Shown here one piece after another: positions 19,181-41,600 of a stretch of DNA of 64,000 bases. How positions within the stretch are numbered: position 1 is the stretch's first letter; the number at the start of each line of letters is the position of its first letter. The position numbers and the translations under genes were made by a program. Source of the stretch: Candidatus Dojkabacteria bacterium. Lineage in GTDB: Bacteria; Patescibacteriota; Dojkabacteria; SC72; JAFGCJ01. Below the pieces are notes generated by a model. It made no database searches. It saw only the letters and a program-made list of their open reading frames with translations, and was not told where the DNA came from. The stretch spans positions 10,909 through 74,908 of the forward strand of contig JAFGCJ010000001.1 in NCBI GenBank assembly GCA_016932785.1, written 5' to 3'.

Positions 19181-19239
19181 TATAGGATTCTCCGCTTCCA
19201 TTGGACATTTACAACACCTCAATATATACTGTTACCACT

Positions 19240-21831
19240 ATGGAAATAGTATTTGTTGGATTGTTTGTAATAGGGCTCGGAATACTTGTATACCTTATCT
19301 TTTTCCGAAAAAAAGAGGAAGAAATTGTATTTGAAGAGGTAAGGGATCCCGTTGTTATACATATTGCTGTCCCGAGACAAAACGATAAAACTCCTCTTGC
19401 GGCTGAGCAGATGTTTGCGTCTCTTCATGGTATTTTGAGAGATAATAAAAGATCTACTGATTTTCTAAGTTTTGAGATTGTTTCAGATAAGGGGCAGGGG
19501 GTTAATTTCTATGCTGTTGTTCCGGGGTATCTTGTGAAATTTGTTGAAGGGCAGATCTATGCTCAATATCCAAATGCCGAAATAGCTGTGGTCAACGATT
19601 ATATTGATGTTGCGGTTTCTGGTGCTGATCCGTCAACGTACAGTCCGTACATTTCTACAGGGGAAATAGAGTTAGCAAAAGACTTCATTTTTCCAATAAA
19701 GACCTTTCGTGATTTCGATGTAGATCCACTTTCTGCTATCACAAGTGCTCTTTCGGCGGTAGAGGATGGAGAACAAGTCATGATTCAGATTTTAATACGT
19801 CCTGTGGCCAATTACTGGCAGGATTGGGCTAAAGAGTATATTGAAGCCGTTCGTGAAGGGAAAGACCCTTCTGTAAAGTCTGGTGGGTTGTTGGGTTCAA
19901 TGGCTAAGGGGGTGTTTAGTGTTATAGTGGGTGCTCTGGATGTGTTTATGGGACCTTCCTCGGATGGATCCGGTAGGCCTGAGCAGAAGCCTGTAGTAAA
20001 ATTACTACCAGGGCAGGAGGAGGAGCTTACCCAAATTAGTGAAAAGATGACAAGGGTCGGTTTTGAAGTTGCGGTTAGAGTAATTATAAAGGCATTGGAT
20101 GCAGGTAGGTCCGAACAGTTGCTGAGAGATGTTATAGCATCGTTTAAGCAGTTTACCACGGCTAATCTGAACGGATTTACTCAGTCCAAAGTTAATAAGA
20201 CTGGGTCTCAAATGTATGATGAGTATCGTAGTAGATATTTGAGTGCTGACTGTACAGATATTCTTACAATCTCTGAGCTTGCATCCTTATATCATCTTCC
20301 TAATATTTCAGTTGAGACTCCCAATATTAGCTGGTCAAGAGCAAAGAAGTCTGAGCCTCCAATGAATCTTCCTGTTGAAGATGCGACAATTTTTGCTGAG
20401 ACTGACTTTAGGGAGAGGCGTCAACAGTTTGGTATAAAAAAGGGAGATAGAAGACTTCACTTCTATTTGTTGGGGAAAACAGGCAGCGGCAAGTCTACAG
20501 TTTTTAAGAATATGATAACCTCGGATATTCTAGCTGGGGAAGGTGTGGCGGTCATTGATCCACACGGAGAGCTGGTAGAAGATCTCCTTAATTTTATTCC
20601 CTCAAATAGAATAAATGATGTTGTGTATTTTGATCCTGCAGATGTTGATAATCCAATAGGTTTTAATCTCCTGGAGCTTGATGATCAGGATCAGAGGGAT
20701 ATGGTTGCGGATGGGGTGGTTGAGGTTTTCAAAAAACATTTTGAGTATTCCTGGGGGCCGAGACTTCAATATGTTCTCACAAACGCTATTTTGACTATTC
20801 TGGAGGCTCAAGGACAGACGTTATTGGCAGTTCAGCGTATGCTTATTGATAAAAATTTCAGGAAGTTTGTGTTGAAGCAGGTAAAAGATCCGCTTCTTTT
20901 GAAGTTCTGGAATGACGAATATGCCAAAATGGAGACAAATTCCCGGCTTATTACAGAGGCTGTTGCGCCTATTCAGAATAAGGTTGGGAGGTTTCTAGCC
21001 TCTGCGACAATTAGAAATATTGTTGGTCAGGTTAAGTCTACAATCAATCTTAGAGAGATTATGGATGAGGGGAAAATTTTTCTTGTAAACCTGTCGCAGG
21101 GTAGACTCGGAGAGGAGAGTAGTGCTTTGCTTGGTGGAATGATCGTGACGAGACTTCAGACCACTGCTATGGAGAGGGTTGATACGGCTATGGAGAAAAG
21201 GCGTGACTTTTTCATGTTTGTTGATGAGTTTCAAAACTATGCTACGGACTCTTTTGCAAAGATATTGTCTGAGGCGCGAAAGTATCGGCTATGTCTGCAT
21301 CTTACCCATCAGTATATTGACCAGTTGCCGGAGAATGTCCGTACTGCCATATTTGGAAATGTTGGAACACTGGCGAGCTTTGTTGTCGGTCCAACTGATG
21401 CGATGGTTCTTGCCAAGGAGTTTGCTCCCGTCTTTGATGAAGAGGATATGGTGTCACTCGAGCGATACGCAATGTATCTCAAGTTGTCAATTGATGGTAT
21501 GGTATCAATACCGTTTAGTGCAAGGTCTCTAGATGTGAGGTACGAGCCTGGAAGCAACAGAGAAACGGTACTTCAGGTTTCCCGGGAGAGATATGGACGA
21601 CCTAGAGATGTTGTTGAGGATAAGATTAATCGTTGGTCCGGACAGACATATAGTGAGAAGGGAAATAGATCTGTAATGAGTGATGGAGAAGACCGGGAAA
21701 AAGGACGAGATTCAGAAAGAAAAGGGACCCAAGGTGATAATCGTAGTAAATCTGGAGGTTCAAATAAACGTAGCAACAATAATAGATCTTCTAGTGGTGG
21801 AAAAACCAGATCCAAAGATCCGAATTCCTAG
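19240..21831 (+). CDS. Membrane-anchored TraD/VirD4/HerA-like (FtsK-HerA superfamily) P-loop ATPase
   Basis: N-terminal TM segment (EIVFVGLFVIGLGILVYLIFF), Walker A LLGKTGSGKST and Walker B FFMFVDEFQNY. The C-terminal tail is S/R/K-rich and low-complexity. The ATG at 19240 is preferred over the TTG at 19201. Confidence 0.65.
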   Translation: MEIVFVGLFVIGLGILVYLIFFRKKEEEIVFEEVRDPVVIHIAVPRQNDKTPLAAEQMFASLHGILRDNKRSTDFLSFEIVSDKGQGVNFYAVVPGYLVKFVEGQIYAQYPNAEIAVVNDYIDVAVSGADPSTYSPYISTGEIELAKDFIFPIKTFRDFDVDPLSAITSALSAVEDGEQVMIQILIRPVANYWQDWAKEYIEAVREGKDPSVKSGGLLGSMAKGVFSVIVGALDVFMGPSSDGSGRPEQKPVVKLLPGQEEELTQISEKMTRVGFEVAVRVIIKALDAGRSEQLLRDVIASFKQFTTANLNGFTQSKVNKTGSQMYDEYRSRYLSADCTDILTISELASLYHLPNISVETPNISWSRAKKSEPPMNLPVEDATIFAETDFRERRQQFGIKKGDRRLHFYLLGKTGSGKSTVFKNMITSDILAGEGVAVIDPHGELVEDLLNFIPSNRINDVVYFDPADVDNPIGFNLLELDDQDQRDMVADGVVEVFKKHFEYSWGPRLQYVLTNAILTILEAQGQTLLAVQRMLIDKNFRKFVLKQVKDPLLLKFWNDEYAKMETNSRLITEAVAPIQNKVGRFLASATIRNIVGQVKSTINLREIMDEGKIFLVNLSQGRLGEESSALLGGMIVTRLQTTAMERVDTAMEKRRDFFMFVDEFQNYATDSFAKILSEARKYRLCLHLTHQYIDQLPENVRTAIFGNVGTLASFVVGPTDAMVLAKEFAPVFDEEDMVSLERYAMYLKLSIDGMVSIPFSARSLDVRYEPGSNRETVLQVSRERYGRPRDVVEDKINRWSGQTYSEKGNRSVMSDGEDREKGRDSERKGTQGDNRSKSGGSNKRSNNNRSSSGGKTRSKDPNS

Positions 21832-27054: not shown

Positions 27055-28428
27055 ATGCTTTTAAACTACTATAAATTAACAGATCAGGATGAGTACATAC
27101 TGGAGTTGCAGAATAACAACTACAGTAATAGGACGATATACAACTATGACCGCGATTTAAGCATTTTCGCAAGGTTTCTTGATCATCAGGAGGTGGATTT
27201 TGATAAGGTTGATAAGAAGACGATTACTTATTATAAGGGATATCTGAAATCCGGAGAGCATCTGTCTGTGCATCCAAAAGATAAGGAGTTGCTGGATGAG
27301 GCACTTGAGAGGGTGTCGAAATTGGTTTCGGAAGAAGAAATCGACTCCGAGGAGAGGCATAATGCGGAAAACGCTGATATAATAGCAAAAAACAGCCAAA
27401 ATCGCTCTAGAGGGTCTAGAACACGCGAAAACTATTTTCAGGAGATACAACATATCCAGAAGACCTTAAAAATGTTGAAAAATAGGCCAGATCGTGCTCC
27501 GGGGCTTCCAGGGGGTATGCGAAGGACAGCTTTGTCCAGTTCGGGTTCGTCCGGGGGTGGACTCAGCAGTCGAAGTATCAATCGGATGTTGTCATCCGTT
27601 CGTTCATACCTGAAATGGCGGGTGGATTTCGATATGGATGTTCCAATTCCGCCCGAGGCAATAAAATTGATAAAAACAGAACGAAAAAAACCGCAAGTCG
27701 CTGAATTAAAAGATTTAGTTGCATTAATTGAATGTCCATCGAAATTTGAAAAAGATCCGCGGGTAGCTGCAAGAAACCGCGCTATGCTGGAGTTATTGTT
27801 CAGTACAGGCATGAGAATTTCTGAACTTGTGGGTTTGAATATGGATCAGATCAATGAGCAAGGTAAGATTTTCATTATGGGAAAAGGGAAAAAAGAGCGT
27901 TTTGTGTATCTGACGCCGAGGGCTACGCATTATTTGGTGGAGTACCTGAGAGTAAGGGATTTGGCTTTAGATGAGGTAAAAACTGATGATTCTGTTAGAG
28001 ACATAGATTTGACTGAGGGTGGTGATAAAGGCCGTATTGACGGTGATTCTAAAGGTAGTAAAGGAGTAGGGGCCCCTACTCCGCCCGATCTGAAGGGATT
28101 TTCTAGGGTTGCCGCTGTGCGAAAATCCGGTGAAGCGTTGTTTATCCCCTACCGCGGGGGCCGTGAAGGCAGTGTCGGATCAAGAATTTCTACGAATTAT
28201 TTACAGGAAAAAATCGCTGAATACCGGCAAAGACTTGGGATTGTTGTACCTACTTCAGCGCACAGTCTGAGACATGGTTTTGCTACGTACCTGGCAGAAA
28301 ATGGTGCTAGTCCGGCCGCAATTCAGGTTTTGCTTGGTCACGAGAGTTTACAGACGACGACTAGATATGTGCATGCATCTGATAGGTTTGCACAGGAGAC
28401 TCATGAGAAAAAGCATCCGTTGAGGTGA
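27055..28428 (+). CDS. Tyrosine recombinase/integrase (XerC/XerD-like) with low-complexity insertions
   Basis: N-terminal SAM-like core-binding motif (NYSNRTIYNYDRDLSIFARFL), GMRISELVGL (Arg), HSLRHGFATYL (H-x-x-R) and LLGHESLQTTTRYVH (His, Tyr nucleophile). At 457 aa it is longer than typical Xer proteins. Confidence 0.85.
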   Translation: MLLNYYKLTDQDEYILELQNNNYSNRTIYNYDRDLSIFARFLDHQEVDFDKVDKKTITYYKGYLKSGEHLSVHPKDKELLDEALERVSKLVSEEEIDSEERHNAENADIIAKNSQNRSRGSRTRENYFQEIQHIQKTLKMLKNRPDRAPGLPGGMRRTALSSSGSSGGGLSSRSINRMLSSVRSYLKWRVDFDMDVPIPPEAIKLIKTERKKPQVAELKDLVALIECPSKFEKDPRVAARNRAMLELLFSTGMRISELVGLNMDQINEQGKIFIMGKGKKERFVYLTPRATHYLVEYLRVRDLALDEVKTDDSVRDIDLTEGGDKGRIDGDSKGSKGVGAPTPPDLKGFSRVAAVRKSGEALFIPYRGGREGSVGSRISTNYLQEKIAEYRQRLGIVVPTSAHSLRHGFATYLAENGASPAAIQVLLGHESLQTTTRYVHASDRFAQETHEKKHPLR

Positions 28429-28437
28429 AGGGAGGAA

Positions 28438-30552
28438 CTATCTGTGTATTTTTGATTGTTCCCATCTAGCAAGTTGCTGAATTGCAATTGCTGTTCTAGG
28501 TTTTGGATATATGAAGCACGTTCCGTCTCCTCTGCTTAGATTCCATATTATTCCTATCCTATCGAGATATTCCTGAAGTGTACTCAGGTTACCCTCCACT
28601 TCTTCTGCACCTGGTGGTGCTACTGAAAGCTTCCCTTCTCTTGATGCATCGGCCAAACATCTTCCGAGTCTTGATAAGGCCGACCGTACGTTCTCTGGAA
28701 TACCAACTCTCTGAGTATTATGCTGATCTTCCGTTAAGTGCCTGGATAGTGATCGTATAAGATCTATCTTTTCCGCTGTTTGTTTTCTCTGTGTTTCCAA
28801 ACAATGTGTTACAACTGTGTGAGCTAGTCTGTTAAGCATATATTCCTGAGGTAAGGAAGCCATTAGTTGTACTGTTCTAGCAAAAGCTGGCGGGAGAAAT
28901 GATCTGTTACCCCAGAGTGGGTTAACAAAAACAGCGATGTCTCTTGAGTCTCTGAACTGCTGAAGGCCTGAAAGTCTCTCCTGATCGTTTGTAACCACGG
29001 TCCATCCTCCTGGCCCTTTACCGACTTCTGCTCTTATTGTTGGGTCGAATAATGAGTGGAGCTTTCTTTGTTGAGTATCTGGGTCATCGTAGGGTCTGCA
29101 GATATACATGATTTCGTCTGCTGCGAGAGTTGAAAGGCCTAAGATTGCAGGGTCAAATCCACCTGAATATCTTTGTCTGTTAACACCAACTCTGTATGGG
29201 TAGAAACCCCCGCAATCGAAAATATTAAGTATTGTGGCACTTGATGCACTTTTTAGCCAGTGAAGAAGATTAAAGTTATTTGTTGGGAGACCTGCCGTGG
29301 TTTTGCCAAGCCAGGTTTGACATGAAGGTGGAGGTTCAAGTAATGGCATGTCGGTTAATCGTACGGTTCTAGTTCTCCAATATTTCTGGGGGTCTCTGAG
29401 AAATGCTTTTGCTCTTTCAACATCAGTAAATATTCTTGCGTCAATCTGGTCAGCTGAGAAGAGGTCAGCATGGACTCTTCTGGAATATAGGTCTAGTCCA
29501 GCCAATTCGCATGCTTGGGTTACTGTTCTCTGTAGCATAAGTGACATTGGTGTTTTGCCACAGCTGCTTAGCGATGCCAAAATGCTGTTGAATTCTTTGT
29601 TTTCGGATTTTTTTCTTTCTTCTGGTTTTTCAACAAGGTCTTGGATGGTCTGGGATAGCTGGATAATAGTATTAAATAACTCATCGGCATTGTCACCATA
29701 TCGTTCCAGCCAGGAGTTTGTGGTGTCGAGAATCCGGTTTAATGGTTTGTTACATAACGTCCCTGCTAATGCCGATAGCTCAATAACAATATGCTGAGCT
29801 ACTTGCAAGGTTGTCCAGTATTCTGCTGGTAGAGCTTGTTCGCGGATCCTTAGACAAGACACCATTTCAAATTCCTCAGTATGCGCTGGGTCATTCTCTG
29901 GACTGAATATTGTGCCCTCTTCTATTTCTAGAGCGTCACATATGGTAGCAAATTTTTGGGCAAGCGTTGTTCTGGAGTCTGTTACCGACCAGGCAAATGC
30001 CAGTCCTCGCCCAGGAACCCCAGTGTGTGCTCTTAAGATCCATTTTCCTCCGAAATGTAGTACCTCTGGCGCTCCAGCAACTGAATGCCAAGGACTGAAA
30101 GCAGAAGCTTCTCTGAAGCGGTATTTCGTTATTTCCTCGGTGTTTCTCTTTTCAGGAGCTTGTGAAAATTCTTCAAGTAGAGAATTCCTGGCGGCTTCTT
30201 TTTCATCGGCTTCACCAAAATATAGTGCTAGAACCTGTTGGATTGTCTCTTCTGAAACCTCAAAGAACTGTAGTAGCTCAATTAAAAACGGATATACTGA
30301 ATCGGTATCTCGGCCAAGTTGGGGTCCTAAACTTCCCTTGAGTATACCTTCTACAAGAGAGGTTCTTCCCCTTGCAAGAAGGCTTCCAGCCTCCTCTCTC
30401 TCGAGGGGAGATGTACCCGGAGGTTTCATTTGTTGTGTAGGGTCACCTCTCAATTCATCTGGTACTGTACCGTCGTTTTTTGCTTGAGGTGAAGACGGAG
30501 ACCTTTGTGGCTTTTCAGTGGTTGCTTCTATAGGAGGAGCTACACTTACCAT
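28438..30552 (-). CDS. 704-aa hypothetical protein with no recognisable domain
   Basis: Long ORF with elevated G+C that generates long antisense ORFs. It starts 37 nt downstream of the wHTH-NTPase gene on the same strand. Its stop lies 9 nt from the integrase stop, in convergent orientation. Confidence 0.6.
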   Translation of the reverse strand: MVSVAPPIEATTEKPQRSPSSPQAKNDGTVPDELRGDPTQQMKPPGTSPLEREEAGSLLARGRTSLVEGILKGSLGPQLGRDTDSVYPFLIELLQFFEVSEETIQQVLALYFGEADEKEAARNSLLEEFSQAPEKRNTEEITKYRFREASAFSPWHSVAGAPEVLHFGGKWILRAHTGVPGRGLAFAWSVTDSRTTLAQKFATICDALEIEEGTIFSPENDPAHTEEFEMVSCLRIREQALPAEYWTTLQVAQHIVIELSALAGTLCNKPLNRILDTTNSWLERYGDNADELFNTIIQLSQTIQDLVEKPEERKKSENKEFNSILASLSSCGKTPMSLMLQRTVTQACELAGLDLYSRRVHADLFSADQIDARIFTDVERAKAFLRDPQKYWRTRTVRLTDMPLLEPPPSCQTWLGKTTAGLPTNNFNLLHWLKSASSATILNIFDCGGFYPYRVGVNRQRYSGGFDPAILGLSTLAADEIMYICRPYDDPDTQQRKLHSLFDPTIRAEVGKGPGGWTVVTNDQERLSGLQQFRDSRDIAVFVNPLWGNRSFLPPAFARTVQLMASLPQEYMLNRLAHTVVTHCLETQRKQTAEKIDLIRSLSRHLTEDQHNTQRVGIPENVRSALSRLGRCLADASREGKLSVAPPGAEEVEGNLSTLQEYLDRIGIIWNLSRGDGTCFIYPKPRTAIAIQQLARWEQSKIHR

Positions 30553-30588
30553 TAATTTGAGTGAGTTACATTTATTTCTGGCAGAGTT

Positions 30589-31872
30589 TTAAGAAATGTG
30601 AAGTTTAAAACCTTTTCCTTTTATGGTTACGAGGTGTTTATGGGGTTTGGCGGAATCTTTGATTTTCTTTCTTATTCTTGAAATTGTTTTGTCTATTGCC
30701 CAATCTGAGTAATTTTCAAGATAGGCATTTCCCCATATAAGCTTTGCAATTTCGTCACGGGTTGTTACATTTTGATCATTTTTCTTCATGTAATCTATGA
30801 TTTTTAGCTCGGTTTCAGACAAAATTTGAGAATGTCTCTTGCCATTTATGTAAATTTCTCCAGAAGCGGCATCAATACGGAGCTTTTGATCATTGACTGC
30901 TGTATCTTCACCTTTATCAGCGGGTTTCTCTGGTGTTTTGGACTTTTTCTCTTTGCTGTATATATTAAGTAAATAGTATTCTATTAGTTTACTTCGGATT
31001 TCACCCTTTGGAGTTAATATGCCTGACTTTGAAATGTAGTTGGAAATCTTTGATTTGTCAGGGGCCTTTTTTCTAGCGATTTCAGCTAGGGTTTCAATCT
31101 CATCTTGAGTAAAAGATTGGACGATGTATTGAACCCTTTGTCTAAGTACTGTGCCTTCTAGTAGACTTTTGGGTGAAAAGTCTATTTCTCCTTCTGAGCT
31201 CAGATACCGAAGAGATGAGGTTATAAGGCCGAAGATTCCTCCGCTTAATTCCAGAAGTTTTTTGAGGTTTTCTTCCTTGGCAAGTTCGTCTGAATAAGAA
31301 AGTGCCAGGTCTTTTATGATGTCGGTGTCCCCCTCCTCTGATGGTTGGGAAACATACTCGATGTGACATGCGAAATCGATGAAGTTAGGAAATTCCTTGT
31401 AATGTGGGTCTTCGTGCAGAGGTCTATCCGAAACGAAAATGAAGCAAAGTTTTCCTAGAAATCTGTCTCTAAGTGCTCTAAATGTAGAGAGAAAAGATTC
31501 ATCAAGGAATGTCAGATCTCTTAACGTATCAACAATAATGCATACTTTCTGGTTGTTTTCTGTTATTTTATGAATTAGTTGTCTGACTTTAAGAAAAGGC
31601 TTTGCGGGAAGGCTGTCCTTATCGATATCTTTTACGTGAAGCATTAATTCGCTTGAAAGGAGTTCGTAGAAGCTTTCAGAAGATTGATCGGTGAGGCTTT
31701 GGGAATCAAGATATATTATCAAAATATCCTTTTTTGCGCTAAAACTTCTCAGTGAAGTTGATGTACCTGCAAGAGGTAATCCCCATACATTTATGCTGTC
31801 CCCTCTCGAGATATGGTCTTCAAAGGAGTTTTTCAGATTGACTATGTTTCTCTCTATTCGTTTGTCTTCCAT
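30589..31872 (-). CDS. Degenerate P-loop NTPase-like protein with a C-terminal OmpR/PhoB-type winged-helix DNA-binding domain
   Basis: C-terminal TTRDEIAKLIWGN....DWAIDKTISRIRKKI....LVTIKGKGFKL is Trans_reg_C-like. N-terminal VWGLPLAGTSTSL is Walker-A-like with Lys replaced by Thr. VCIIVDTL is Walker-B-like. Confidence 0.6.
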   Translation of the reverse strand: MEDKRIERNIVNLKNSFEDHISRGDSINVWGLPLAGTSTSLRSFSAKKDILIIYLDSQSLTDQSSESFYELLSSELMLHVKDIDKDSLPAKPFLKVRQLIHKITENNQKVCIIVDTLRDLTFLDESFLSTFRALRDRFLGKLCFIFVSDRPLHEDPHYKEFPNFIDFACHIEYVSQPSEEGDTDIIKDLALSYSDELAKEENLKKLLELSGGIFGLITSSLRYLSSEGEIDFSPKSLLEGTVLRQRVQYIVQSFTQDEIETLAEIARKKAPDKSKISNYISKSGILTPKGEIRSKLIEYYLLNIYSKEKKSKTPEKPADKGEDTAVNDQKLRIDAASGEIYINGKRHSQILSETELKIIDYMKKNDQNVTTRDEIAKLIWGNAYLENYSDWAIDKTISRIRKKIKDSAKPHKHLVTIKGKGFKLHIS

Positions 31873-32025
31873 AGCTGTAGTAAATTTTCTTTACTTGTAG
31901 CAAATATTATACTGTTTTATCAGGTCGTGGTCAAGTTGATGTCAGTTTCAAGTCAAGGGGGTGGATATGTTAAGATAATGTTGTTAGAAAAGGAAATTCT
32001 TAGAGGCAACAATACTGAGCAGTTC

Positions 32026-33334: not shown

Positions 33335-35617
33335 CTAAGTTTGCCGTACCAGTTGTAAAGAGAACGATTGATGTTCATCGGAGTGGTTGGTTCCTGGCCC
33401 TACTACATATGTTACTTCTCCAAGAGTAACGGTTGATCCTTTCTCTAGTGCGGCAATTTCGCCCAGCTCAAGCTTGACACCATTTACCATTGTTCCATTT
33501 GTACTACCGTTGTCTTCAATGAAAATTCCAATATCTGTTCCATAAACTTTTGCGTGGAGTCTAGAAATACTATTAGTCGTGTCATCTGTTGCCCATGCAA
33601 CGTCAAGATACTTTCCTTGCTCGGTGAGATCGCCAGAAACCGTTGGATCTTCTCTACCAATATATACTTCTTTCCCGAATGGAAGCGGTCCCACCGTAAA
33701 TATTCTGGGTTCTAGATCATCAGCCTGAGCTTCAAGTGCTTGTCCTGTTACATCAGAAACAATTTGCAGAAGTTCTTCTTCGGAAATTGATTCAGCTGGG
33801 TAATGGTAGCCGTCTGGTTCTACCAGTGAGACGGAGCAATTATCTGATCCGTCGATAGTGTTAGCCAAAGAAATAAGCGAATCGGCTGCTGCAGTGCCTG
33901 ATTGCTGGCTTAATATAGTACCAATCATTTGCTCTCTCTGCTTTATGTCATCAGGGCTATTCAAATCTCCGTAAAGTCCGTCAGAACATAGCAGTAATCT
34001 TTGACCCGGTTCGAGTCTGACAATTGATGAGGATGGTTTAACTTTTGGGTTTCCCACTGCCTGGGTGAGGGCATGTCTATGTTTTTCCGAAGTGTGGTCT
34101 TCTGAGAGTTGTGTTAGTGTACCGTCAGTGTTAACTAGGTATACCCGGGTATCGCCGACATTTGCGACTATTGCTGTCTCACCTATAAGAAGGGCCCCAG
34201 AGAATGTAGAACCGGAGTCTTCTAGACGACACCATCCTGATATATCTGTACTTGTGTTGGTGATTGTTGTAACGAAGAGATCACGTATTAAAGATGCCTC
34301 TTCATCAGATAGTTGTTCTGTTGTCTTTCCAGTACAAATTCTGGAGACCTTCATCGCGAGCTCATTGCCGAGCTTTGCAAGAGTGTTAGTTACCTCTCTA
34401 GTAACAGCGTTAACAACCATTCTTGATGCGACGTCGCCTTTCTCGTGTCCTCCCATTCCGTCGGCATCGATTACAAGTGTTGGACCTTCAAGAGGTGTGT
34501 CAAGGACAAAAGACATTTCTGCTTCGGGATCTTCTACTAGCTCGACTACAACGGGAAGCATTGTTGCGTTGTTATTGTCTTCTTGTGATGGTCTTACTTC
34601 TCCGATGTGAAGGCCTTCTGTACACGTGTATCTTCCTGGTCTTTGCTGTCGGATCTCAGCACCAGATAGAGGCCCTTTTTCTGAGCTGATGCGAGTGATT
34701 AGTAGATTTCTGTGGACATCAATAGCTATTTGCCGATTAGGCCCTTCAATAAGTGATACTCGTGAAAGACCGCTGTTTTCTCTGGAAAATGGTCTGGTTT
34801 GTGTACTTCTCTCTCCTGAGAATGAAATGATAGGAAGAATTCCTCGAATGTCTGGATCGTATCTGAGGAGATATTGATGGCCATATTCTGTTAGAACATG
34901 GTAATCCACTTCCTCATCTTCTGAACCAAGAGGCAACTCTAGTGATTGTCCCGGCCTAATAAGGACCGGCTCCCCATTCTCTAATTTCTCTTGTACCGTC
35001 TTTTCTCTGGCCTGGTTTGGCCGTTCTATAACATGAATATATACCATCGTGTTCCCAACCTTAACAAGATCCCATTCTGGATGTTCAGATCTTTTTCCTA
35101 GTTCTAAACAGCACTGTGCTGGAGTTACCTGTCCGTGTGGGAATCCGGGGTGTGGTTTGTCTGTTACCGCTGATGTCCCGGTGGAGAACATTAGTACTCG
35201 TTCACTTTTTTTATCACTGTGAAGATAAATTTGCTGACCATTAAGGTGCATATCGGGCTCTGTCTGTGAGACCTGTTCTTGGGTAGTATGATTTCCCTGC
35301 TGTTCTGCAGGAGGCCATTCTGCTTCCTTACCGCCTAACTGTAGGTCAAAGCTATTGCTCTCTAGGGTACCTGCATTAATTTCTAGAACAAGAGCGCGTT
35401 GTCCTGTTGGTAGCTCAACTGATGATAACTGGGCGGCCCAGGGGGCTTCTGGCGCTGTTCCCTGTCCAGCTTCGGCACAATTGTAGGTCTGGATTACATT
35501 TTTAGGTAGTAAATCGAGGAGTTCTGTTGAAATTTCTCTGGCCCTAGTAGTTTCGGCTGTTTTTGGGGCTTCTTGCGGGGTTCTCTCTGCTGTTTTAGCG
35601 TCTTGTTCAGAAGACAT
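33335..35617 (-). CDS. 760-aa fusion protein: unknown ~380-aa N-terminal region, then a PP2C-type Ser/Thr phosphatase, then a C-terminal FHA domain
   Basis: PP2C motifs: DADGMGGHEKGDVAS, GSTFSGALL, VANVGDTRVYLV, LLLCSDGLYG, DGSDNCSVSLV. FHA motifs: VYIGRED, SISRLHAKV, GSTNGTMVNGVKL. Confidence 0.85.
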   Translation of the reverse strand: MSSEQDAKTAERTPQEAPKTAETTRAREISTELLDLLPKNVIQTYNCAEAGQGTAPEAPWAAQLSSVELPTGQRALVLEINAGTLESNSFDLQLGGKEAEWPPAEQQGNHTTQEQVSQTEPDMHLNGQQIYLHSDKKSERVLMFSTGTSAVTDKPHPGFPHGQVTPAQCCLELGKRSEHPEWDLVKVGNTMVYIHVIERPNQAREKTVQEKLENGEPVLIRPGQSLELPLGSEDEEVDYHVLTEYGHQYLLRYDPDIRGILPIISFSGERSTQTRPFSRENSGLSRVSLIEGPNRQIAIDVHRNLLITRISSEKGPLSGAEIRQQRPGRYTCTEGLHIGEVRPSQEDNNNATMLPVVVELVEDPEAEMSFVLDTPLEGPTLVIDADGMGGHEKGDVASRMVVNAVTREVTNTLAKLGNELAMKVSRICTGKTTEQLSDEEASLIRDLFVTTITNTSTDISGWCRLEDSGSTFSGALLIGETAIVANVGDTRVYLVNTDGTLTQLSEDHTSEKHRHALTQAVGNPKVKPSSSIVRLEPGQRLLLCSDGLYGDLNSPDDIKQREQMIGTILSQQSGTAAADSLISLANTIDGSDNCSVSLVEPDGYHYPAESISEEELLQIVSDVTGQALEAQADDLEPRIFTVGPLPFGKEVYIGREDPTVSGDLTEQGKYLDVAWATDDTTNSISRLHAKVYGTDIGIFIEDNGSTNGTMVNGVKLELGEIAALEKGSTVTLGEVTYVVGPGTNHSDEHQSFSLQLVRQT
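33400..33670 (-). other. FHA (phosphothreonine-binding) domain (approximate boundaries)
   Basis: The G-R ... S-R-x-H ... N-G-T signature is fully present. Confidence 0.75.
33820..34495 (-). other. PP2C phosphatase domain (approximate boundaries)
   Basis: The DADGMGGH codons lie at about 34450-34475 and the DNCSV codons at about 33825-33845. Confidence 0.75.
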
Positions 35618-35648: not shown

Positions 35649-38600
35649 CTATACAGCTTGTGTGGCTTCAGGCGCAACATCAAAGGGTGATGCTTCTTCT
35701 GGAGGTGCTTCGGGTTCAGAAGGTTCTGCTGGGGGTTCTTCTGGAGCTGCCTGAGCTTCAGATCGATTCTCATCTGCGTCTAAGGGCGAACCATTGAATG
35801 TTGTACGGAATTCCGTATCTACTTCTCTATAAACGCGGATTCCTATTTTTCTGAATTCCGGGTGCTTTTCATGTACGAACTCCAGTCGTAGCTCTGTGAT
35901 TGCATTCAATGTGTCTGCATCATTATAATCGAGCCTCTTGCTAAGTGGTATATATTCACGGTAGAAAGCTGTGTATGCTGCTTCGGCCTCCTCTTCAGTC
36001 TCAGCATTCTCTATTGCCTTTAATAGTGCCTCACCCTCGGGGAAGAGGTCCTCGGGGATCTCCTGTTTCTCTTCGGCTTCAGCTTTGGGCTGCTTTTCTT
36101 CTCGGTATTCTGGTATTTCCCTTTTTGTTACTTCACTCACTACCGGCCTGGTGGGGCGTTCTCCGGATATAACCTTCATGTAGAGGACCTGATACCTTAC
36201 TCTTTCATCTCCTACATTTGGTCCAAGATCATTTACCCAATCGGATGGTTCACCTTCCGCTGCTCCGGTGTCGACTAAGTGCTGTGCAAATCTCACTGCG
36301 TCCTCCCTTGTTTGGAATCCTCCTCCCGCAAGGTTTTCTCCATTATAGTTACCTCTTGCTATATTACCGTTATAACTCTCAATAGTTTCTCTGATATCGC
36401 CCTTGGTGAAACGCTCTCTCCATTCTTTATTTTCTGTAACGACAATCCTTGGCAGGTTTGGGTTTGGAAGCTCTCGCTCTGCAGTTTCTGTTCCAGGTTC
36501 TTCCGCGGTGGCGACTTCTTCTACGACAAGTCTATATCTTCTCTGTCGCGTTTTCTCTCTTGTTGCTGGGTCGGGTACCTCTCTCTTATCTGGTTCTCCC
36601 ATATCTTCAACTCTTGTTTGGGCTCCTTCCTCTATAACTCCCTTTTCTCTTAGATAAGTCTCGAATGCCTGTGCGGCTTCAGCACTTCTAAAGCCGACTA
36701 TTTCGCCTTCGCTGGTTCTTCTGTCCCTTCCTATTGTATATCCCCTGTCAGGCCATCTTGTCTGCTTTTCATTAAATTCTCTAAGGCTTGCTCGTATTTG
36801 GGCTTCTAGCGGGTGTTCTGGGCGTTGTGCCGTAGGGGCTTCACGTTGTGCGGTCTCTCTTGCCGCGGCAGTTGTTGTTGGTTGTGGTGTTGTTGTCGCG
36901 GTCGGTACAGGTGCCGCTGGTCTTGCAGGTGGTCTTGTTGCAGGTTCTGTTCCAGCGGGTTCTCTTGTTCCCGTGGTGGGTCGCACCGGTGCAGTTGTCA
37001 GAGGTTGGCGTCCGACTCGTCTCATAGTTTCTCCGACAGGTACTGTTCCAGCTCCTGTTGTTCTAGCTCTGGCTGCCCTTGCAGCTTGCTCTCGTAACTG
37101 GGCTGTAGCTCTTCCTGCCTGCTCTCTTCCTTCATCTATTTGTGTCTGTAAGTTTGCAATTCGATCTCTGAGATCTTGTGTCATTTCTGCTGTTGCACCA
37201 GGTCTTCTGGTTCTAGTACCCCCAGCTTGAGGGCGAGGTGCTGCCGGTTCCGCGGGGGGGGCTGGTTCAGCAGGTTCCTCCGGTTCTACCGTTGCCTCGC
37301 CTCTTCGAAACATTACCCGATATCTTCTGTCGTTATGCTCTCGGCGAGCTGCTCGATCGAGTCCTTCTGCTGGATTTCCAGAGTCCTGTACTAGCGTTTC
37401 TGGATTATCTAATTCTACGATACCGGCCTCGACTAATCTTTGTGCAAATCTTGCAGCTTGTCTTCTTGTTCTGAATCCGAATCCAGTTTGTTCATCGTCG
37501 CCTTCACCTTCTGTAAATCGAGTTGCTCTTTGGCCGGCATGAGTGGCTACTCTAGCCATTGTAGCGTTCCCAACGGCACCCAATGGTATTACCGGTACCA
37601 CAGGGGCTCCCGGTTCAGCAGTTTCCTCTACTACGGCTCTACCTGCTAAGGCTCTTCCAGCGTTTCGTACTCTTGTTCCTGCCTCTCGGGCTGCTTCTCT
37701 CGCTCGTTGTCCAATACCAGGCCTGGCCTCTCCTTCTCTTTCTTCTGCCTGACCTCTAACTTGCTGGTCAAAATCTCCCCTTGCGGCCCTTGCAACTGCT
37801 CGTGCTCTTGTTCCTACTCTGCCTTGCGTTCTGCCGTCTCCATCTTTAGTGTCGTCAGGGGCGTAAACAGCCTGTCCTGCAACTGCGGCCGTTGCGGCGA
37901 ATGCACCTTTAACAATGTTATTTCCTGTTCTCATTAAGGCAGCGTAAAAGTTACCTGAACCCTGGGAACTTGCAAGAAGGAATGATCTTTGTGCCGCTAT
38001 AAGGGCAGCCTCTCTCTGAGCTTCTGCCATTGCCTGTGCTAGAGCATCAAGCTCGGTGGAACAGTTATATCCCTCCTGTGCAAGGCCAAACATTGTGTTG
38101 TTAAATGCTTCGACTGTCATTGTTCCCGCGGTTTTGGTTACCTCTCCTGCGACTTCTAGATCAAATGCGGGATTTGCAATTGCATCTTCAACAGACATTT
38201 GTCCTGTAAGGATTGCGTTGAAAGCTCTTGCGCCATCTCCATCGGCCTGGTTGAGCGATTCCAGCGTTACGCCAGCGTCATGTAGTTTCTCAAATGTATC
38301 CTCAATTGCCATACCACCCCCGAATTGTCCGGGTTCTCCGGTGCCTACGTTTAATCCATGAATTTTTCCGCCGTAACCCCAGTCTAGTTCTTTCATAAGA
38401 TCCGGGTTATCCCAGTTATCGAGGTGGAGTTCATCGTAGGAGCTGAAGCCTGTTGAAGGAACCTTCACAACCTCACCTGTTCGTTCGGTTACGGTCTTTA
38501 TGACATCGTCACCGAGAAGAGCCTGGACTTTTGCCAGCTCTTCACCTCGTAATACTCCGTCTCCATCGTCAATGGTTTCGAATATTCTATTTATTACCCT

Positions 38601-41600
38601 TTGGTCTACGCCATTGTCTTTTAATATGTCGACTTGTATCTGGTGATAGTCCTGCTGGACAGCCTCAATGTCTTGGAGTGCGTCCTCGAACTTTGGAACA
38701 CCAGCAAAAGTTTCGCCTCTAATTCTTCCAAGAAAGTCGCCTGTGGAGATAAGGTTTTGAACGACCTTGGAGACTGCACCAAAGATACCGCCTACAACGG
38801 CGCCTTTGAACATCTTGTTCAGCATCTCTGCTCTTCTTGCTTGAGCAACTGCCTCGGTAATTTCTGCATTAGCCGCTTGAGTAATTTCTGCAGTATCAAT
38901 GTTATTTGCCGAGATTATCTCAGGGATTACCTGGATCAAATGATTTATTGCTTCCATATTCTGGACAGCATTTCCTTCTGCGTTCGTAAAGCCGTTTTCG
39001 AGTTCGATGGCATTAAGTGCTCTGAATTCTGTTGTCCGTCTTAATACAATTAATTGTCTGTATGCAGTAAGCAGCTGTTGGTCGGTTAGGCCCTCAATAT
39101 TCTGGAGTGTCAGGTTTGGATTCTGGGCGAGATCGATATCTCGGACGGCATGGTAAACTGTTGCAAGATCTCCCATTCGCTGAGGTATCTGGAAAATATC
39201 GATGAGTCTGTTTCTAAGTCTATTTTTGAATGACAGAATGCCTCCAAGAAACTTTGAAACAACACAGTTTTCAGCCCATGTAACATGTTCACCCGGGTGG
39301 AACAAATGATGTACTTTTGAGTTGATAACTCCACCCAGCAGACCACCGGCTACTCCGGCTAAGGTTGCAACTAGTAATGCTCCGCCTCCTGTAGCAAGAA
39401 CTGTTCCGGCGGCCAAAGCCGCGATAGCTCCAGTAACAATTGTCTTGACTCCCCATGCTCCTGCAATGTTTGTTACAAATTCCACAACTCCTCTGGCAAA
39501 TTTCTTCCAGCCCTTGACTGGCTCTTTTTCTTCAACTTGTATTTGTTCACGTAGTCTTTGTGCGTTTTCTCTTGCTAGGGCTGCAGCTTCTTCTGCTTCA
39601 GCTTCGGGATTTTCGGCTGGTTCTCCTGGCTCTGGGACGGGAGCGCCTTCAACTAGGGCATCTATTTCGGCAAGTTCGGCCTCTCTTCGTACTAGTTCTG
39701 CTTGTGCCTGCTCTAGCCGTTCTATAACCCGCCCTAGCTCTTCGTATGCGGGAATGAGCTCTGCGGGTATGCCCCCGAGGTCTATTCTTGGGGGTTGTTG
39801 AGCTGCTGTGGTCGTGTCTTCTGCTCTGGGTTGTGTAGCAGTTCCGGGTTGAGTTCCGGCTCCGGTTCCCGCAGCCTGATGAGATCCTTCAGCCTCTCTT
39901 TGTGCAATAACTTCTGCCCAGTACTCATCAGTAACCTCTCCTATATCAACTCCCGCGGTTTCTAGCATATCTAGATTTTGGTCGGTAACTGCTATTATCC
40001 CTTCTACTAAAGCAATAACTTCCTCTTGATCTCTGATTGCTTCTTGAAGTTCGGTGTTTTCTGGATCATCCTGTAGTTTATCCTGAAGCTGCATGAGTTT
40101 AAGTTGTTCATCAACCAATTGGTTTGAAGCCTCTAAATTGGCTTTGACTGTCTCCTTGGCACTGTCTACTAATCCCTGTGCGACTTCAGGGACTGAGGCA
40201 GCTTCCTGCATTAGAATTTCTCTTTCATCTTCTGAAATGACGGCTTCGATAGCATCATTTAAAGCTCTTGCAATCTCATTAATTATTTCAGCCTCTTCAT
40301 CCGCAGTCTCCTCTTCAGCACGATGGCCTGCTTCAATAAAATGTCTTGCTGCAACCCTAAATGCGTCAAGATCTCCGTCTAATGATGTCGTAATGACAAC
40401 ATTGGTTTGAAGTACGACTTCCTTAAGAGCCTCTGATTTTGCAATCAGTTCTTGTGCTTCTGGGGAGAGGTCTTCAACTTGTACTGTGTGTTCGCGATCA
40501 GATGGAGGAGTACCGGTCTTGACCTCTTGTACCGGTTCTTCCTTAACTATGTCGCGCACTTGCTCCATGATCTGCCGTTGCTCATCTGTTAACGAGTCTT
40601 CGACGGCATTGTTGATCAGTGAATTGACTCTTCCAAATGCTTGTATATCTTCTTCGGTTTCTGCAGGTCTTAATTCCCGCATTTGGCGGAAATATGCAAA
40701 AGCCTGTTCCCTGAAACTTTCTAAATTCTCTTGATTAGTAAAAATGAGGCCATTTGCTATTCGAATGAGATTGTCTAGATCTTCTCTTCTTGCTAAGAAC
40801 TCTCTGTCTTCTGGTGAAAGATCACTGATGTCTATTCCTTCTTTGGGGGTAGTACCGGTTTCTGGTCCTGGTTTAGATTCATTATAAACCTCACTATATG
40901 CCCGTGTCATGATCTCTCTTTGCTCTCCTGTTTGAGTATCAGTAAGTGCTTGATCGATACTAGTAGTTGCAGTGAGTATGTCTCTGGGGCTTTGTCCTTG
41001 GGCCGGTACAGCCGACCTTAATGCCCGTAATTGCCGGAAATATTCATGTGCTGTTGTCTCAAAAGCTGATCTTTCCTCTGTCTCCGGTCCTAATTCTATT
41101 AGCAAATTAGCTATTCTTAGTAGTTCTTGAAGGTCTTCTCTTTCGCTGATGATTGTCCTTATGTTTTCAGGAAAATTATCGGGATCAATGGCTTCGGCTT
41201 CGTCCTCGTCCTCAGCTTCTGGGACAGGTAATCCACCGGCTTGTTCGATAAGGTCTTCCATTCGATAACGTGTGATGTACGATGGAATTTCCAAAAACTG
41301 TGGATATTCCTGGAAACATGCATATACTCTTTTAGATATAGCCCTAGCAAGAAGATCTTGTGGCCGGTCTTGGTTGGTTGCTCCTGTAACGATATTTGCG
41401 GGCTCGACTCCAGCTCTAATCTCCTCTATATAAATAGACTCAAGTGCTCTTTGGAATTCTTCTGCTGTTTCTGCCCGTTCAAGTTCTTCAACGAGAGGTT
41501 CAAATGTTTCGGTATACTGATCGGGTATGGGACGCGGTTCAGGTTCAGCGGGTTGTTCCGGTTCTTTGGCTTGTACTTCAGTCTGAGGCCCTTTCTCTTG

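What the first reader, a model, noticed from the sequence alone, without database searches (positions are those of the whole stretch)
28438..31872. Two-gene module next to an integrase: degenerate P-loop protein with C-terminal OmpR-type wHTH, plus a 704-aa ORFan
The 427-aa protein replaces the usual receiver domain of OmpR-type regulators with an NTPase-like domain. Its Walker A lysine is substituted (GLPLAGTST), while a Walker-B-like IIVDT remains. It is followed 37 nt later by a G+C-richer 704-aa protein with no recognisable domain. The module sits tail-to-tail with a tyrosine recombinase, with only 9 nt between the stops. An NTPase-sensor gene plus a large unknown effector beside a recombinase resembles STAND/Avs-like or other two-gene defence and accessory modules. 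The evidence is contextual only.
Basis: partly seen in the sequence, partly recalled or inferred. Interest (0 to 1): 0.6.

Follow-up and report, generated by a model that had tools for sequence, protein, structure and literature searches.

The report
Autoregulated NTPase-fold regulator plus P-loop partner
This is not a defence island beside an integrase but a vertically inherited two-gene operon of Patescibacteria, encoding a DNA-binding regulator built on a dead ATPase fold and a fast-evolving P-loop partner, with a conserved repeat operator in its own promoter.

Summary
The sequence observations hold. The 427-aa and 704-aa ORFs, the K-less P-loop GLPLAGTST, IIVDT, the OmpR-type wHTH and the 9-nt tail-to-tail junction are all present; the intergenic gap is 36 nt, not 37.

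- The "integrase" is the chromosomal XerC/D-like recombinase. It lies in a conserved YebC-RuvC-RuvA-RuvB-TM-Xer block.
- The gene pair is kept in 14 of 14 orthologous loci, mostly at the same site.
- PADLOC finds nothing, and no viral relatives were found.
- The 427-aa N-terminus models confidently as an AAA+/STAND-like fold resembling Cdc6/Orc1, PaBy2304 and CED-4.
- The "ORFan" belongs to a very fast-evolving family (18-26% identity). It has an invariant Walker A GK[ST] and an hhhhDxxGF motif resembling Era/EngA GTPases.

New here: the operon promoter carries three YTGAC(A) direct repeats at an 11-bp period, the last one forming the -35 element. The pattern is unique in the window. Phased YTGAC pairs lie upstream of 28 of 46 family genes against 2 of 447 other genes (p=3e-31).

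Across paralogues, the Walker-A lysine tends to sit in either the regulator or the partner, not both.

Most likely this is an autoregulated transcription-control module. Its biological output is unknown.

The parts
30589..31872 (-). 427-aa regulator. Domains: NTPase-fold domain (about residues 25-195), helical lid/WH-like region (196-311), disordered linker (312-328), OmpR-type wHTH (329-427).
   Evidence: ORF. Pfam Trans_reg_C. AF2 model with mean pLDDT 86.3. Foldseek matches to Cdc6/Orc1, PaBy2304, CED-4, TnsC and MuB.
31756..31782 (-). Degenerate Walker A, GLPLAGTST (residues 31-39), with the lysine replaced by Thr37.
   Evidence: All close orthologues lack the lysine. Some paralogues keep GK[ST] (L003 GMGKS, L019 GVGKT, L021 GTGKS).
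31528..31548 (-). Walker-B-like strand VCIIVDT (residues 109-115). A single Asp, with no catalytic Glu following it.
30592..30888 (-). OmpR/PhoB-type winged-helix DNA-binding domain. The recognition helix YSDWAIDKTISRIRKK is almost invariant across the family.
31919..31956 (-). Predicted operator. Three direct repeats YTGAC at an 11-bp period (TTGACttgaaaCTGACatcaacTTGAC), plus a fourth degenerate CTGAT. The third repeat is the -35 element.
   Evidence: Unique in the 64-kb window (1 match, 0.03 expected). The strict triple repeat occurs 8 times in 715 kb, always 50-200 nt upstream of a wHTH-family gene (the L046 site lies further from the called, truncated start). Enrichment p=3e-31.
31906..31934 (-). 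Sigma-70-type promoter TTGACC-17-TATAAT (11 of 12 matches), about 30 nt upstream of the ATG of the 427-aa gene.
28438..30552 (-). 704-aa partner protein ('U'), a member of a very fast-evolving P-loop family that always lies downstream of the regulator gene.
29551..29574 (-). Walker A of U, SLSSCGKT (residues 327-334). G332 and K333 are invariant in the family.
   Evidence: Profile matches to the P-loop strand-loop-helix of EngA, Der, HflX, EF-Tu and ABC proteins.
29203..29229 (-). Walker-B/G3-like motif of U, LNIFDCGGF (residues 442-450). D446 is invariant and the pattern is hhhhDxxGF.
27055..28428 (+). Neighbouring XerC/D-like chromosomal tyrosine recombinase, convergent with U. This is context, not part of the module.

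Best explanation
A two-gene, sigma-70-driven, autoregulated operon that is vertically inherited in a clade of Candidatus Dojkabacteria. Paralogous copies occur across the Microgenomatia branch of Patescibacteria.

Gene 1 encodes a transcription factor. Its OmpR-type winged helix is fused to an AAA+/STAND-like nucleotide-binding-fold domain instead of a receiver domain. In this clade that domain has lost the Walker A lysine and has no catalytic Glu, so it probably acts as an oligomerisation or switch scaffold rather than an enzyme.

The factor is predicted to bind head-to-tail, as an oligomer, to three 11-bp-phased YTGAC(A) repeats that overlap the -35 element of its own near-consensus promoter. 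The most likely effect is repression of that promoter.

Gene 2 encodes a rapidly diverging cytoplasmic P-loop NTPase with Era/EngA-like G1 and G3 motifs. It supplies the module's only intact nucleotide-hydrolysing site. It is inferred to control the regulator's assembly on DNA or its release.

Shown: the domain identities, the fold of gene 1, conservation of the pair, the P-loop motifs of gene 2, and the specific association of the repeats with family promoters.

Inferred: DNA binding at those repeats, the sign of regulation, a physical or functional coupling of the two proteins, and the biological signal and output.
For: Regulator domains:
- Trans_reg_C is above threshold.
- The AF2 model has mean pLDDT 86.3.
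- Foldseek top hits are Cdc6 (1fnn, E 2.6e-7), PaBy2304 (2qen, TM 0.55), ORC subunits, CED-4, TnsC and MuB.
- STAND-like motifs are conserved: hhhhSxRP after beta-4, and the invariant GG of 'SGGIxGL' / 'TGGYYPL'.

Conservation of the pair:
- It is kept in 14 of 14 orthologous loci, including L044, where the neighbours differ.
- Across 84 non-redundant family members, 52 of 71 with enough downstream DNA have a same-strand ORF of at least 250 aa within 200 nt. The two genes often overlap by 4 nt.
- No terminator is predicted between the two genes.

The U family:
- Linked by pairwise and profile hits.
- GK is invariant and the Walker-B Asp nearly invariant.
- Four sequences not used to build the profile all carry GxxxxGK[ST].
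- The best PDB profile hits are EngA and Der (E 5.7e-7 to 1e-4).

Operator:
- One site in the window against 0.03 expected.
- All 8 strict triple repeats in 715 kb lie upstream of family genes.
- 28 of 46 family genes against 2 of 447 other genes have phased pairs (p=3e-31). In the enlarged set the figure is 50 of 79.
- From my own knowledge: OmpR/PhoB proteins bind 11-bp-phased direct repeats that overlap the -35 (Pho box).

Complementary P-loops:
- Regulators without the lysine have partners with a Walker A in 19 of 27 cases.
- Regulators with the lysine have such partners in 1 of 13 cases (p=4e-4).
Against: - There is no experimental evidence and no literature on this family.
- The structure model of U failed (pLDDT 37). 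Its P-loop fold and GTPase-like class therefore rest on motifs and on short profile matches confined to the P-loop.
- No NKxD (G4) motif is conserved in U.
- The complementary-P-loop pattern rests on only two or three independent clades.
- No second operator site was found in the 64-kb window, so the regulon may be only the operon itself.
- L047 lacks the repeats. The L004 partner lacks a Walker A and shows no detectable homology to U.
- The extreme divergence of U is also what an arms-race protein would show.
Confidence: 0.5

Rival explanations
1. Dedicated local regulator plus cargo. The 427-aa protein simply represses or activates its own operon. U is the regulated output, a fast-evolving protein with some other cellular or host-interaction role. 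There is no direct interplay between the two proteins.
For: - An autoregulatory operator is predicted.
- No other operator site exists in the window.
- Partner proteins are so divergent that many paralogous partners cannot be shown to be homologous.
Against: - The complementary distribution of the Walker A lysine between regulator and partner suggests that they share one nucleotide-dependent function.
- The 4-nt overlaps in many paralogous pairs suggest coupled, stoichiometric synthesis.
Confidence: 0.25
2. Anti-phage or conflict system. A STAND-like sensor plus a large effector confers defence, possibly with a transcriptional output.
For: - STAND/CED-4-like fold and GxP-like motif.
- Very rapid evolution of U: 18-26% identity where Xer and RuvB are 59-69%.
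- Several paralogous pairs per genome, for example L027+L034, L026+L033 and L039.
Against: - No PADLOC hit for any member of either family.
- No recognisable effector domain.
- No sensor repeats.
- Conserved chromosomal position next to housekeeping genes in genomes only about 40% identical in this protein.
- The neighbouring recombinase is Xer, not a mobile-element integrase.
- No compositional anomaly.
- No viral homologues.
Confidence: 0.1
3. Chromosome-biology factor. An Orc1/Cdc6-like DNA-binding ATPase-fold protein and its NTPase partner act on DNA (replication, segregation or dimer resolution) together with the adjacent Xer and RuvABC. The repeats would be iteron-like binding sites.
For: - The best structural matches are Cdc6/Orc1 and ORC subunits.
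- Neighbours are Xer, RuvABC and YebC, and GyrA in L044.
- Phased repeats resemble iterons.
Against: - The repeats coincide exactly with the -35/-10 of the gene's own promoter in nearly every locus, including paralogues away from Xer and Ruv.
- A single genome can hold several paralogues.
- The DNA-binding domain is of the OmpR transcription-factor type, not Cdc6_C.
- Foldseek TM-scores to ORC are modest (0.3-0.4).
Confidence: 0.07

Closest known systems
STAND-class transcription regulators (MalT/LAL; AfsR and large SARPs)
   Same: A nucleotide-binding oligomerisation domain of the AAA+/STAND type is fused to a DNA-binding domain. In AfsR and SARPs the DNA-binding domain is the same OmpR-type Trans_reg_C. 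Binding is to arrays of direct repeats at promoters.
   Different: - Domain order is reversed relative to SARPs, where the wHTH is N-terminal.
- No BTAD domain and no TPR or other sensor repeats. The protein is only 427 aa.
- The Walker A lysine is lost in this clade.
- It is always paired with a separate P-loop protein.
OmpR/PhoB response regulators and the Pho box
   Same: The same effector domain. The predicted operator of 11-bp-phased direct repeats overlapping the -35 mirrors Pho-box architecture (my own knowledge).
   Different: There is no receiver domain, no phospho-acceptor Asp and no cognate histidine kinase. The input domain has a P-loop fold.
Orc1/Cdc6 and the PaBy2304 'Walker-type ATPase' (PDB 1fnn, 2qen)
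   Same: These are the best Foldseek matches. Overall layout is the same: ATPase core, then helical lid, then a C-terminal winged helix.
   Different: Sequence identity is only 13-15% and TM-scores 0.37-0.55. The winged helix is of the OmpR type. The nucleotide site is degenerate. Context points to transcription, not replication initiation.
Avs/NLR-like STAND defence proteins
   Same: STAND-like nucleotide-binding fold.
   Different: No PADLOC or Avs model hit, no C-terminal sensor repeats and no nuclease, TIR or protease effector. The locus is syntenic and chromosomal rather than a variable island.
Era/EngA (Der)-type TRAFAC GTPases (for the 704-aa partner)
   Same: G1 'G(L/I/R)P(N/D)xGK(S/T)' and G3 'hhhDxGGF' closely resemble EngA/Der 'GRPNVGKST' and 'DTGGF'. 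These are the best PDB profile hits.
   Different: The matches are confined to the P-loop. G1-G3 spacing is about 113 aa rather than about 45. There is no conserved NKxD. Large N- and C-terminal regions are unique, and no Pfam GTPase model reaches threshold.

Membership tests
OmpR/PhoB-family response regulator | C-terminal Trans_reg_C winged-helix effector domain | tested here: met
   PF00486 at E 2.1e-12, 47.4 bits against a cut-off of 26.2. The AF2 model shows a beta-sheet, three helices and a wing at residues 331-424.
OmpR/PhoB-family response regulator | N-terminal receiver (REC) domain with a phospho-acceptor Asp | tested here: not met
   No Response_reg hit. NCBIfam response-regulator models align only to residues about 303-425 and score far below their cut-offs. 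The N-terminus folds as a P-loop ATPase-like domain.
STAND NTPase (including Avs-type defence) | P-loop NOD fold with a helical lid carrying a GxP-like motif | tested here: met
   Foldseek matches to CED-4 (TM 0.43-0.48), Cdc6 and PaBy2304. Invariant G211-G212 in 'SGGIxGL' / 'TGGYYPL' / 'CGGVPFL', and 'hhhhSxRP' after beta-4. An AAA+ initiator-clade origin cannot be told apart from STAND at these scores.
STAND NTPase (including Avs-type defence) | Functional Walker A GxxxxGK[ST] and Walker B hhhhD[DE] | tested here: not met
   GLPLAGTST has Thr at the lysine position, and IIVDT has no second acidic residue. Some paralogues keep GK[ST] and DE.
STAND NTPase (including Avs-type defence) | C-terminal sensor repeats (TPR, WD40, LRR) and a match to defence-system models | tested here: not met
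   No repeat domains in Pfam. No PADLOC hit for any of 19 family members.
Orc1/Cdc6 initiators | AAA+ initiator-clade ATPase plus a Cdc6_C winged helix, detectable by sequence profile | tested here: not met
   Structural resemblance only (1fnn E 2.6e-7, TM 0.37-0.41). No Cdc6 or ORC Pfam hit. The winged helix is Trans_reg_C.
SARP/AfsR regulators | N-terminal Trans_reg_C followed by BTAD (then NB-ARC and TPR in the large forms) | tested here: not met
   Trans_reg_C is C-terminal. No BTAD or NB-ARC hit.
P-loop NTPase (704-aa partner) | Walker A GxxxxGK[ST] on a strand-loop-helix, and a Walker B hhhhD | tested here: met
   G332, K333 and D446 are invariant. 13 of 14 orthologous partners carry the motif, including 4 sequences not used for the profile. 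Profile hits fall on the P-loop region of EngA, Der, HflX, EF-Tu and ABC proteins.
P-loop NTPase (704-aa partner) | Three-dimensional P-loop fold and class assignment (TRAFAC GTPase or ASCE ATPase) | tested here: inconclusive
   The AF2 model from a 3-sequence alignment failed (pLDDT 37). No conserved NKxD. Pfam hits are all sub-threshold and limited to the P-loop.
Mobile-element integrase (neighbouring 457-aa gene) | Variable presence, flanking att repeats or a tRNA target, cargo genes | tested here: not met
   The best models are XerC and XerD (E 1.4e-57 and 2.5e-54). The gene is 52-69% identical and syntenic with RuvB and the TM protein in other genomes. The only tRNA in the window is 15 kb away. 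Xer scores are below NCBIfam equivalog cut-offs, probably because of insertions, so 'XerC/D-like' is the safe name.

The most novel reading that the evidence does not exclude
A Patescibacteria-specific, nucleotide-switch counterpart of two-component signalling. An OmpR-type DNA-binding domain is driven by an AAA+/STAND-like domain instead of a receiver, and by a P-loop (GTPase-like) partner instead of a histidine kinase. The module keeps exactly one live P-loop, in either protein. That P-loop gates oligomerisation on 11-bp-phased CTGACA repeats. The hypervariable partner would be the signal-sensing subunit, possibly sensing host- or phage-derived cues in these episymbionts.
Probability: 0.25. 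Interest if true: 0.7.

Novelty: new variant of a known kind. Interest (0 to 1): 0.45.

Why it matters
Patescibacteria (CPR) have tiny genomes, few recognisable transcription factors and mostly unknown regulation. This analysis defines three things:
- a lineage-specific regulator family, with at least 84 non-redundant members across Microgenomatia;
- its obligatory partner gene;
- a concrete, testable DNA operator.

The regulator and operator can be tested directly in vitro without culturing the organism. The analysis also removes a false lead, because the locus is not a defence island beside an integrase. The apparent either/or distribution of the active P-loop between regulator and partner, if confirmed, would be an unusual example of a catalytic function moving between two subunits of a regulatory module.

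Tried and rejected
- Word-seeded homology search with U704 alone and with the 9-sequence profile returned only the query itself. The exhaustive HMMER search found just two real relatives. One further hit, P0027, is a spurious low-complexity repeat protein.
- The AF2 model of U from a 3-sequence alignment gave pLDDT 37 and was unusable. With hindsight the 9-sequence alignment should have been submitted.
- hhalign between U and the regulator's ATPase domain aligned only the P-loops, at probability 14%.
- hhalign among partners of distant paralogues could not unite them. Only one pair reached 66%.
- Pfam on 27 distant partners gave only sub-threshold P-loop hits, plus one unrelated ArgRS neighbour.
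- PADLOC on every member of both families gave nothing significant.
- The viral contig scan found no relatives.
- Three literature searches found nothing on this architecture.
- A mobile-island reading was rejected. There is no nearby tRNA, no G+C anomaly, and synteny is conserved.
- A regulon including the upstream giant gene was considered, but no second operator exists in the window.
Full report
**Observation.** The window comes from a Candidatus Dojkabacteria (Patescibacteria/CPR) contig. The source name for the 704-aa protein is JW710_00170.
- a 427-aa ORF at 30589-31872 (-);
- a 704-aa ORF at 28438-30552 (-);
- a convergent 457-aa tyrosine recombinase at 27055-28428 (+).

The stops of the recombinase and the 704-aa gene are 9 nt apart. 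The gap between the two minus-strand genes is 36 nt, not 37. GLPLAGTST (residues 31-39) and IIVDT are present. Pfam finds Trans_reg_C at residues 351-424 (E 2e-12) and only a sub-threshold AAA_22 match. The 704-aa protein has no Pfam, NCBIfam or PADLOC hit. Its G+C (0.442) is higher than that of the 427-aa gene (0.374) but close to the window mean of 0.427.

**The neighbourhood is housekeeping and syntenic, not mobile.** The gene order in the window is:
- a VirD4-like gene, YebC, RuvC, RuvA, RuvB, a 343-aa membrane protein and Xer on the plus strand;
- then, converging on the minus strand, U(704), the regulator(427), a NadD-like gene, GreA, a PP2C-FHA protein and a 2264-aa giant protein.

The recombinase matches XerC and XerD models (E 1e-57 and 2.5e-54). 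By direct reading it carries the Xer-type signature: TGMRISEL, HSLRHGFAT, LLGHESLQTTTRYVH. In other genomes the same block recurs:
- L001 has giant, regulator, U, GreA, then reversed Xer, TM, RuvB, RuvA, RuvC and YebC.
- L002, L004, L034, L043 and L045 repeat the regulator-U-(GreA)-Xer arrangement.

Between these genomes, identity to the window protein is 52-69% for Xer, 65-67% for RuvB, 38-44% for the regulator, and about 18-26% for U. The nearest tRNA is 15 kb away. No relative of the regulator exists in the viral contig collection.

**The pair is a conserved unit.** All 14 orthologous loci I could recover have the regulator gene followed on the same strand by a large ORF. These are the window, L001, L002, L004, L034 and L043-L051. 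The partners are 561-971 aa where complete, and some are cut by contig ends.
- In L044 the outer neighbours differ (VanY, GyrA), yet the pair persists.
- Two hits from an exhaustive HMMER search with U704 proved to lie directly downstream of regulator genes. P0025 is in L047 and P0026 is in L045. They were found without using any genomic context.

The regulator family extends across Microgenomatia: Dojka-, Woese-, Roizman-, Gottesman-, Shapiro- and Amesbacteria, WWE3, and some Paceibacterota. Of 84 non-redundant members, 71 have enough downstream DNA to judge. In 52 of these a same-strand ORF of at least 250 aa starts within 200 nt, and many overlap the regulator gene by 4 nt. Several genomes hold more than one copy.

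**Gene 1.** AlphaFold2 on a 19-sequence alignment gave mean pLDDT 86.3. The model has:
- an alpha/beta nucleotide-binding-type core (about residues 25-195);
- a helical lid and helical region (196-311);
- a disordered linker (312-328);
- a classical OmpR effector domain (329-427).

Foldseek against the PDB ranks the following:
- Cdc6 (1fnn, E 2.6e-7);
- the PaBy2304 Walker-type ATPase (2qen, TM 0.47/0.55);
- ORC subunits;
- CED-4 (TM 0.43-0.48);
- TnsC and MuB.

It does model as an AAA+/STAND-type fold. The family alignment shows a Walker-A-like WGLPxxGxS[ST] without lysine in all close orthologues. It also shows a single-Asp Walker B, an hhhhSxRP strand resembling STAND sensor-1, and an invariant GG in 'SGGIxGL' / 'TGGYYPL' / 'CGGVPFL' that resembles the STAND GxP motif. 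More distant paralogues retain GK[ST] and even a DE Walker B, for example L021 and L032. The ancestor was therefore probably an active ATPase. The recognition helix YSDWAIDKTISRIRKK is almost invariant.

**Gene 2 is not an ORFan.** Pairwise and profile comparisons link U704 to the syntenic partners:
- L002, E 8e-9;
- L045/P0026, E 5e-17;
- P0025/L047, E 1e-15;
- L034, L046, L043, L044 and L001 through the profile.

The alignment has four invariant columns: H166, G332, K333 and D446. G332-K333 lie in GxxxxGK[ST] (the window has SLSSCGKT), preceded by a hydrophobic strand. D446 lies in hhhhDxxGF (LNIFDCGGF). Four partners obtained later and not used for the profile carry GMPDAGKT, GIPDVGKS, GCPRSGKS and GIPNTGKS. 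In total 13 of 14 orthologous partners have the motif.

Profile searches of PDB sequences hit only P-loop proteins. With the trimmed 12-sequence profile the best hits are EngA (E 5.7e-7) and Der, followed by HflX, MnmE, FeoB and EF-Tu. The G1 'GxP(N/D)xGKS' and G3 'DxGGF' resemble Era/EngA-type GTPases, but no NKxD is conserved and the matches do not extend beyond the P-loop. The structure model of U failed (pLDDT 37), so the fold class is unresolved.

**A conserved operator (new).** Upstream of the regulator gene lies a near-consensus promoter, TTGACC-17-TATAAT (11 of 12 matches). It is preceded by further YTGAC units at an 11-bp period: TTGACttgaaaCTGACatcaacTTGACcacgacCTGAT (31956-31919, minus strand).

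The same layout is found in 13 of the 14 orthologous loci, although the surrounding intergenic sequence is otherwise unalignable. It consists of two or three CTGACA units at 11 bp, the last being the -35 element.

Statistics:
- The triple pattern occurs once in the 64-kb window, against 0.03 expected.
- It occurs 8 times in 715 kb of collected loci, every time upstream of a family gene on the same strand.
- Phased YTGAC pairs lie within 120 nt upstream of 28 of 46 family genes, against 2 of 447 other genes (Fisher p=3e-31). One of the two exceptions is a large gene immediately preceding a regulator gene.
- In the enlarged set 50 of 79 family genes have them.

Distant paralogues show variant layouts, for example CTGAC at the -35 position and again just after the -10. 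From my own knowledge, OmpR/PhoB proteins bind head-to-tail to 11-bp-phased direct repeats that overlap the -35 (the Pho box). Autoregulation is therefore the natural inference. Because the promoter is already near consensus, repression is the more likely sign. Neither point has been demonstrated.

**Complementary P-loops.** Regulators were aligned to the family HMM and scored at the Walker A lysine position.
- Of regulators without the lysine, 19 of 27 have partners with GxxxxGK[ST].
- Of regulators with the lysine, 1 of 13 do (Fisher p=4e-4).
- L004 is the one syntenic locus whose partner lacks a Walker A. Its regulator has an intact GTGKN.

The pattern rests on few independent clades: the orthologue clade, an 'IVHFPSTG[IV]T' clade, and perhaps one more. 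It is suggestive only. It favours a model in which the two proteins share one nucleotide-dependent step.

**Interpretation.** The best-supported reading is an autoregulated two-gene transcription-control module. It comprises a pseudo-NTPase-fold OmpR-type regulator and a GTPase-like P-loop partner that probably controls it. The signal and the downstream targets are unknown.

The defence reading is weak. It has:
- no PADLOC hits;
- no effector or sensor-repeat domains;
- a conserved chromosomal site;
- Xer rather than a mobile-element integrase as neighbour.

The very fast evolution of U and the multiplicity of paralogues keep a conflict-related role alive at low probability. A chromosome-biology role, suggested by the Orc/Cdc6 resemblance and the Xer/Ruv context, is disfavoured. 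The repeats coincide with the gene's own promoter in every context, including paralogues that lie elsewhere.

**Novelty.** I found no description of this architecture or operon in the literature. It is best classed as a new variant of NTPase-domain-coupled transcription regulators such as MalT and AfsR/SARP. It differs in domain order, in its degenerate nucleotide site, in the obligatory P-loop partner and in its restriction to Patescibacteria.

Noticed in passing
window 35649-42443 (-): A 2264-aa giant protein with no Pfam hit. It has acidic and proline-rich low-complexity tracts and a Gly/Ala-rich hydrophobic segment. Homologous giants (27-28% identity over about 650 aa) sit immediately upstream of the regulator gene in L001 and L002, so it belongs to the same syntenic block.
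   Followed up: partly
window 33335-35617 (-): A 760-aa protein combining a PP2C phosphatase domain (residues 385-560) and a C-terminal FHA domain, after a long N-terminal region with no hit. It lies between GreA and the giant gene.
   Followed up: no
window 19201-21831 (+): An 876-aa VirD4/TraG-like coupling protein (TrwB_AAD_bind, DUF87/HerA, TraG-D_C) directly upstream of YebC-RuvC-RuvA-RuvB. It may belong to a type IV secretion or competence-type system.
   Followed up: no
window 27055-28428 (+): The Xer-like recombinase is 457 aa and has two large insertions relative to XerC/D (about residues 80-165 and 310-370). This pushes its NCBIfam scores below the equivalog cut-offs. The insertions are shared by orthologues of 429-469 aa in other loci.
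   Followed up: partly
L002 7201-7725: An IS200/IS605-type Y1 transposase gene is inserted between the giant gene and the regulator gene. It leaves the promoter repeats (7815-7841) intact.
   Followed up: no
L047 92-550 and 4308-4763: Two GreA paralogues flank the regulator-U pair. GreA is also adjacent to the pair in the window, L001, L004, L034 and L043, and near distant paralogous pairs in L010 and L012. This is a recurrent, unexplained association with a transcript-cleavage factor.
   Followed up: partly
L043, L048, L050 promoters (e.g. L050 about 1490-1510): In a subset of orthologues the -35 repeat is followed by its inverted copy (TTGACAcatatGTCAg). This gives a palindrome inside the promoter spacer in addition to the direct repeats.
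   Followed up: no
window 1-28000 versus 28000-64000: GC skew is strongly positive (0.2-0.37) across the plus-strand gene block up to Xer. It drops to about 0 or slightly negative after the strand switch at about 28.43 kb. Cumulative skew keeps rising, so this looks like a coding-strand effect rather than a replication terminus.
   Followed up: no
window 7967-12628 (+) and 43864-47544 (+): Further very large ORFs of 1553 aa and 1226 aa. The 1226-aa protein has no Pfam hit. The 1553-aa ORF was not scanned.
   Followed up: no
L016 (LNGD01000231.1, 1.9 kb): A regulator-family gene lies on a short contig binned into a Candidatus Methanofastidiosum (archaeal) MAG. Several other loci are binned as 'uncultured Gammaproteobacteria' or 'Saccharibacteria'. 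These are probably binning or labelling errors rather than true occurrences outside Microgenomatia.
   Followed up: no
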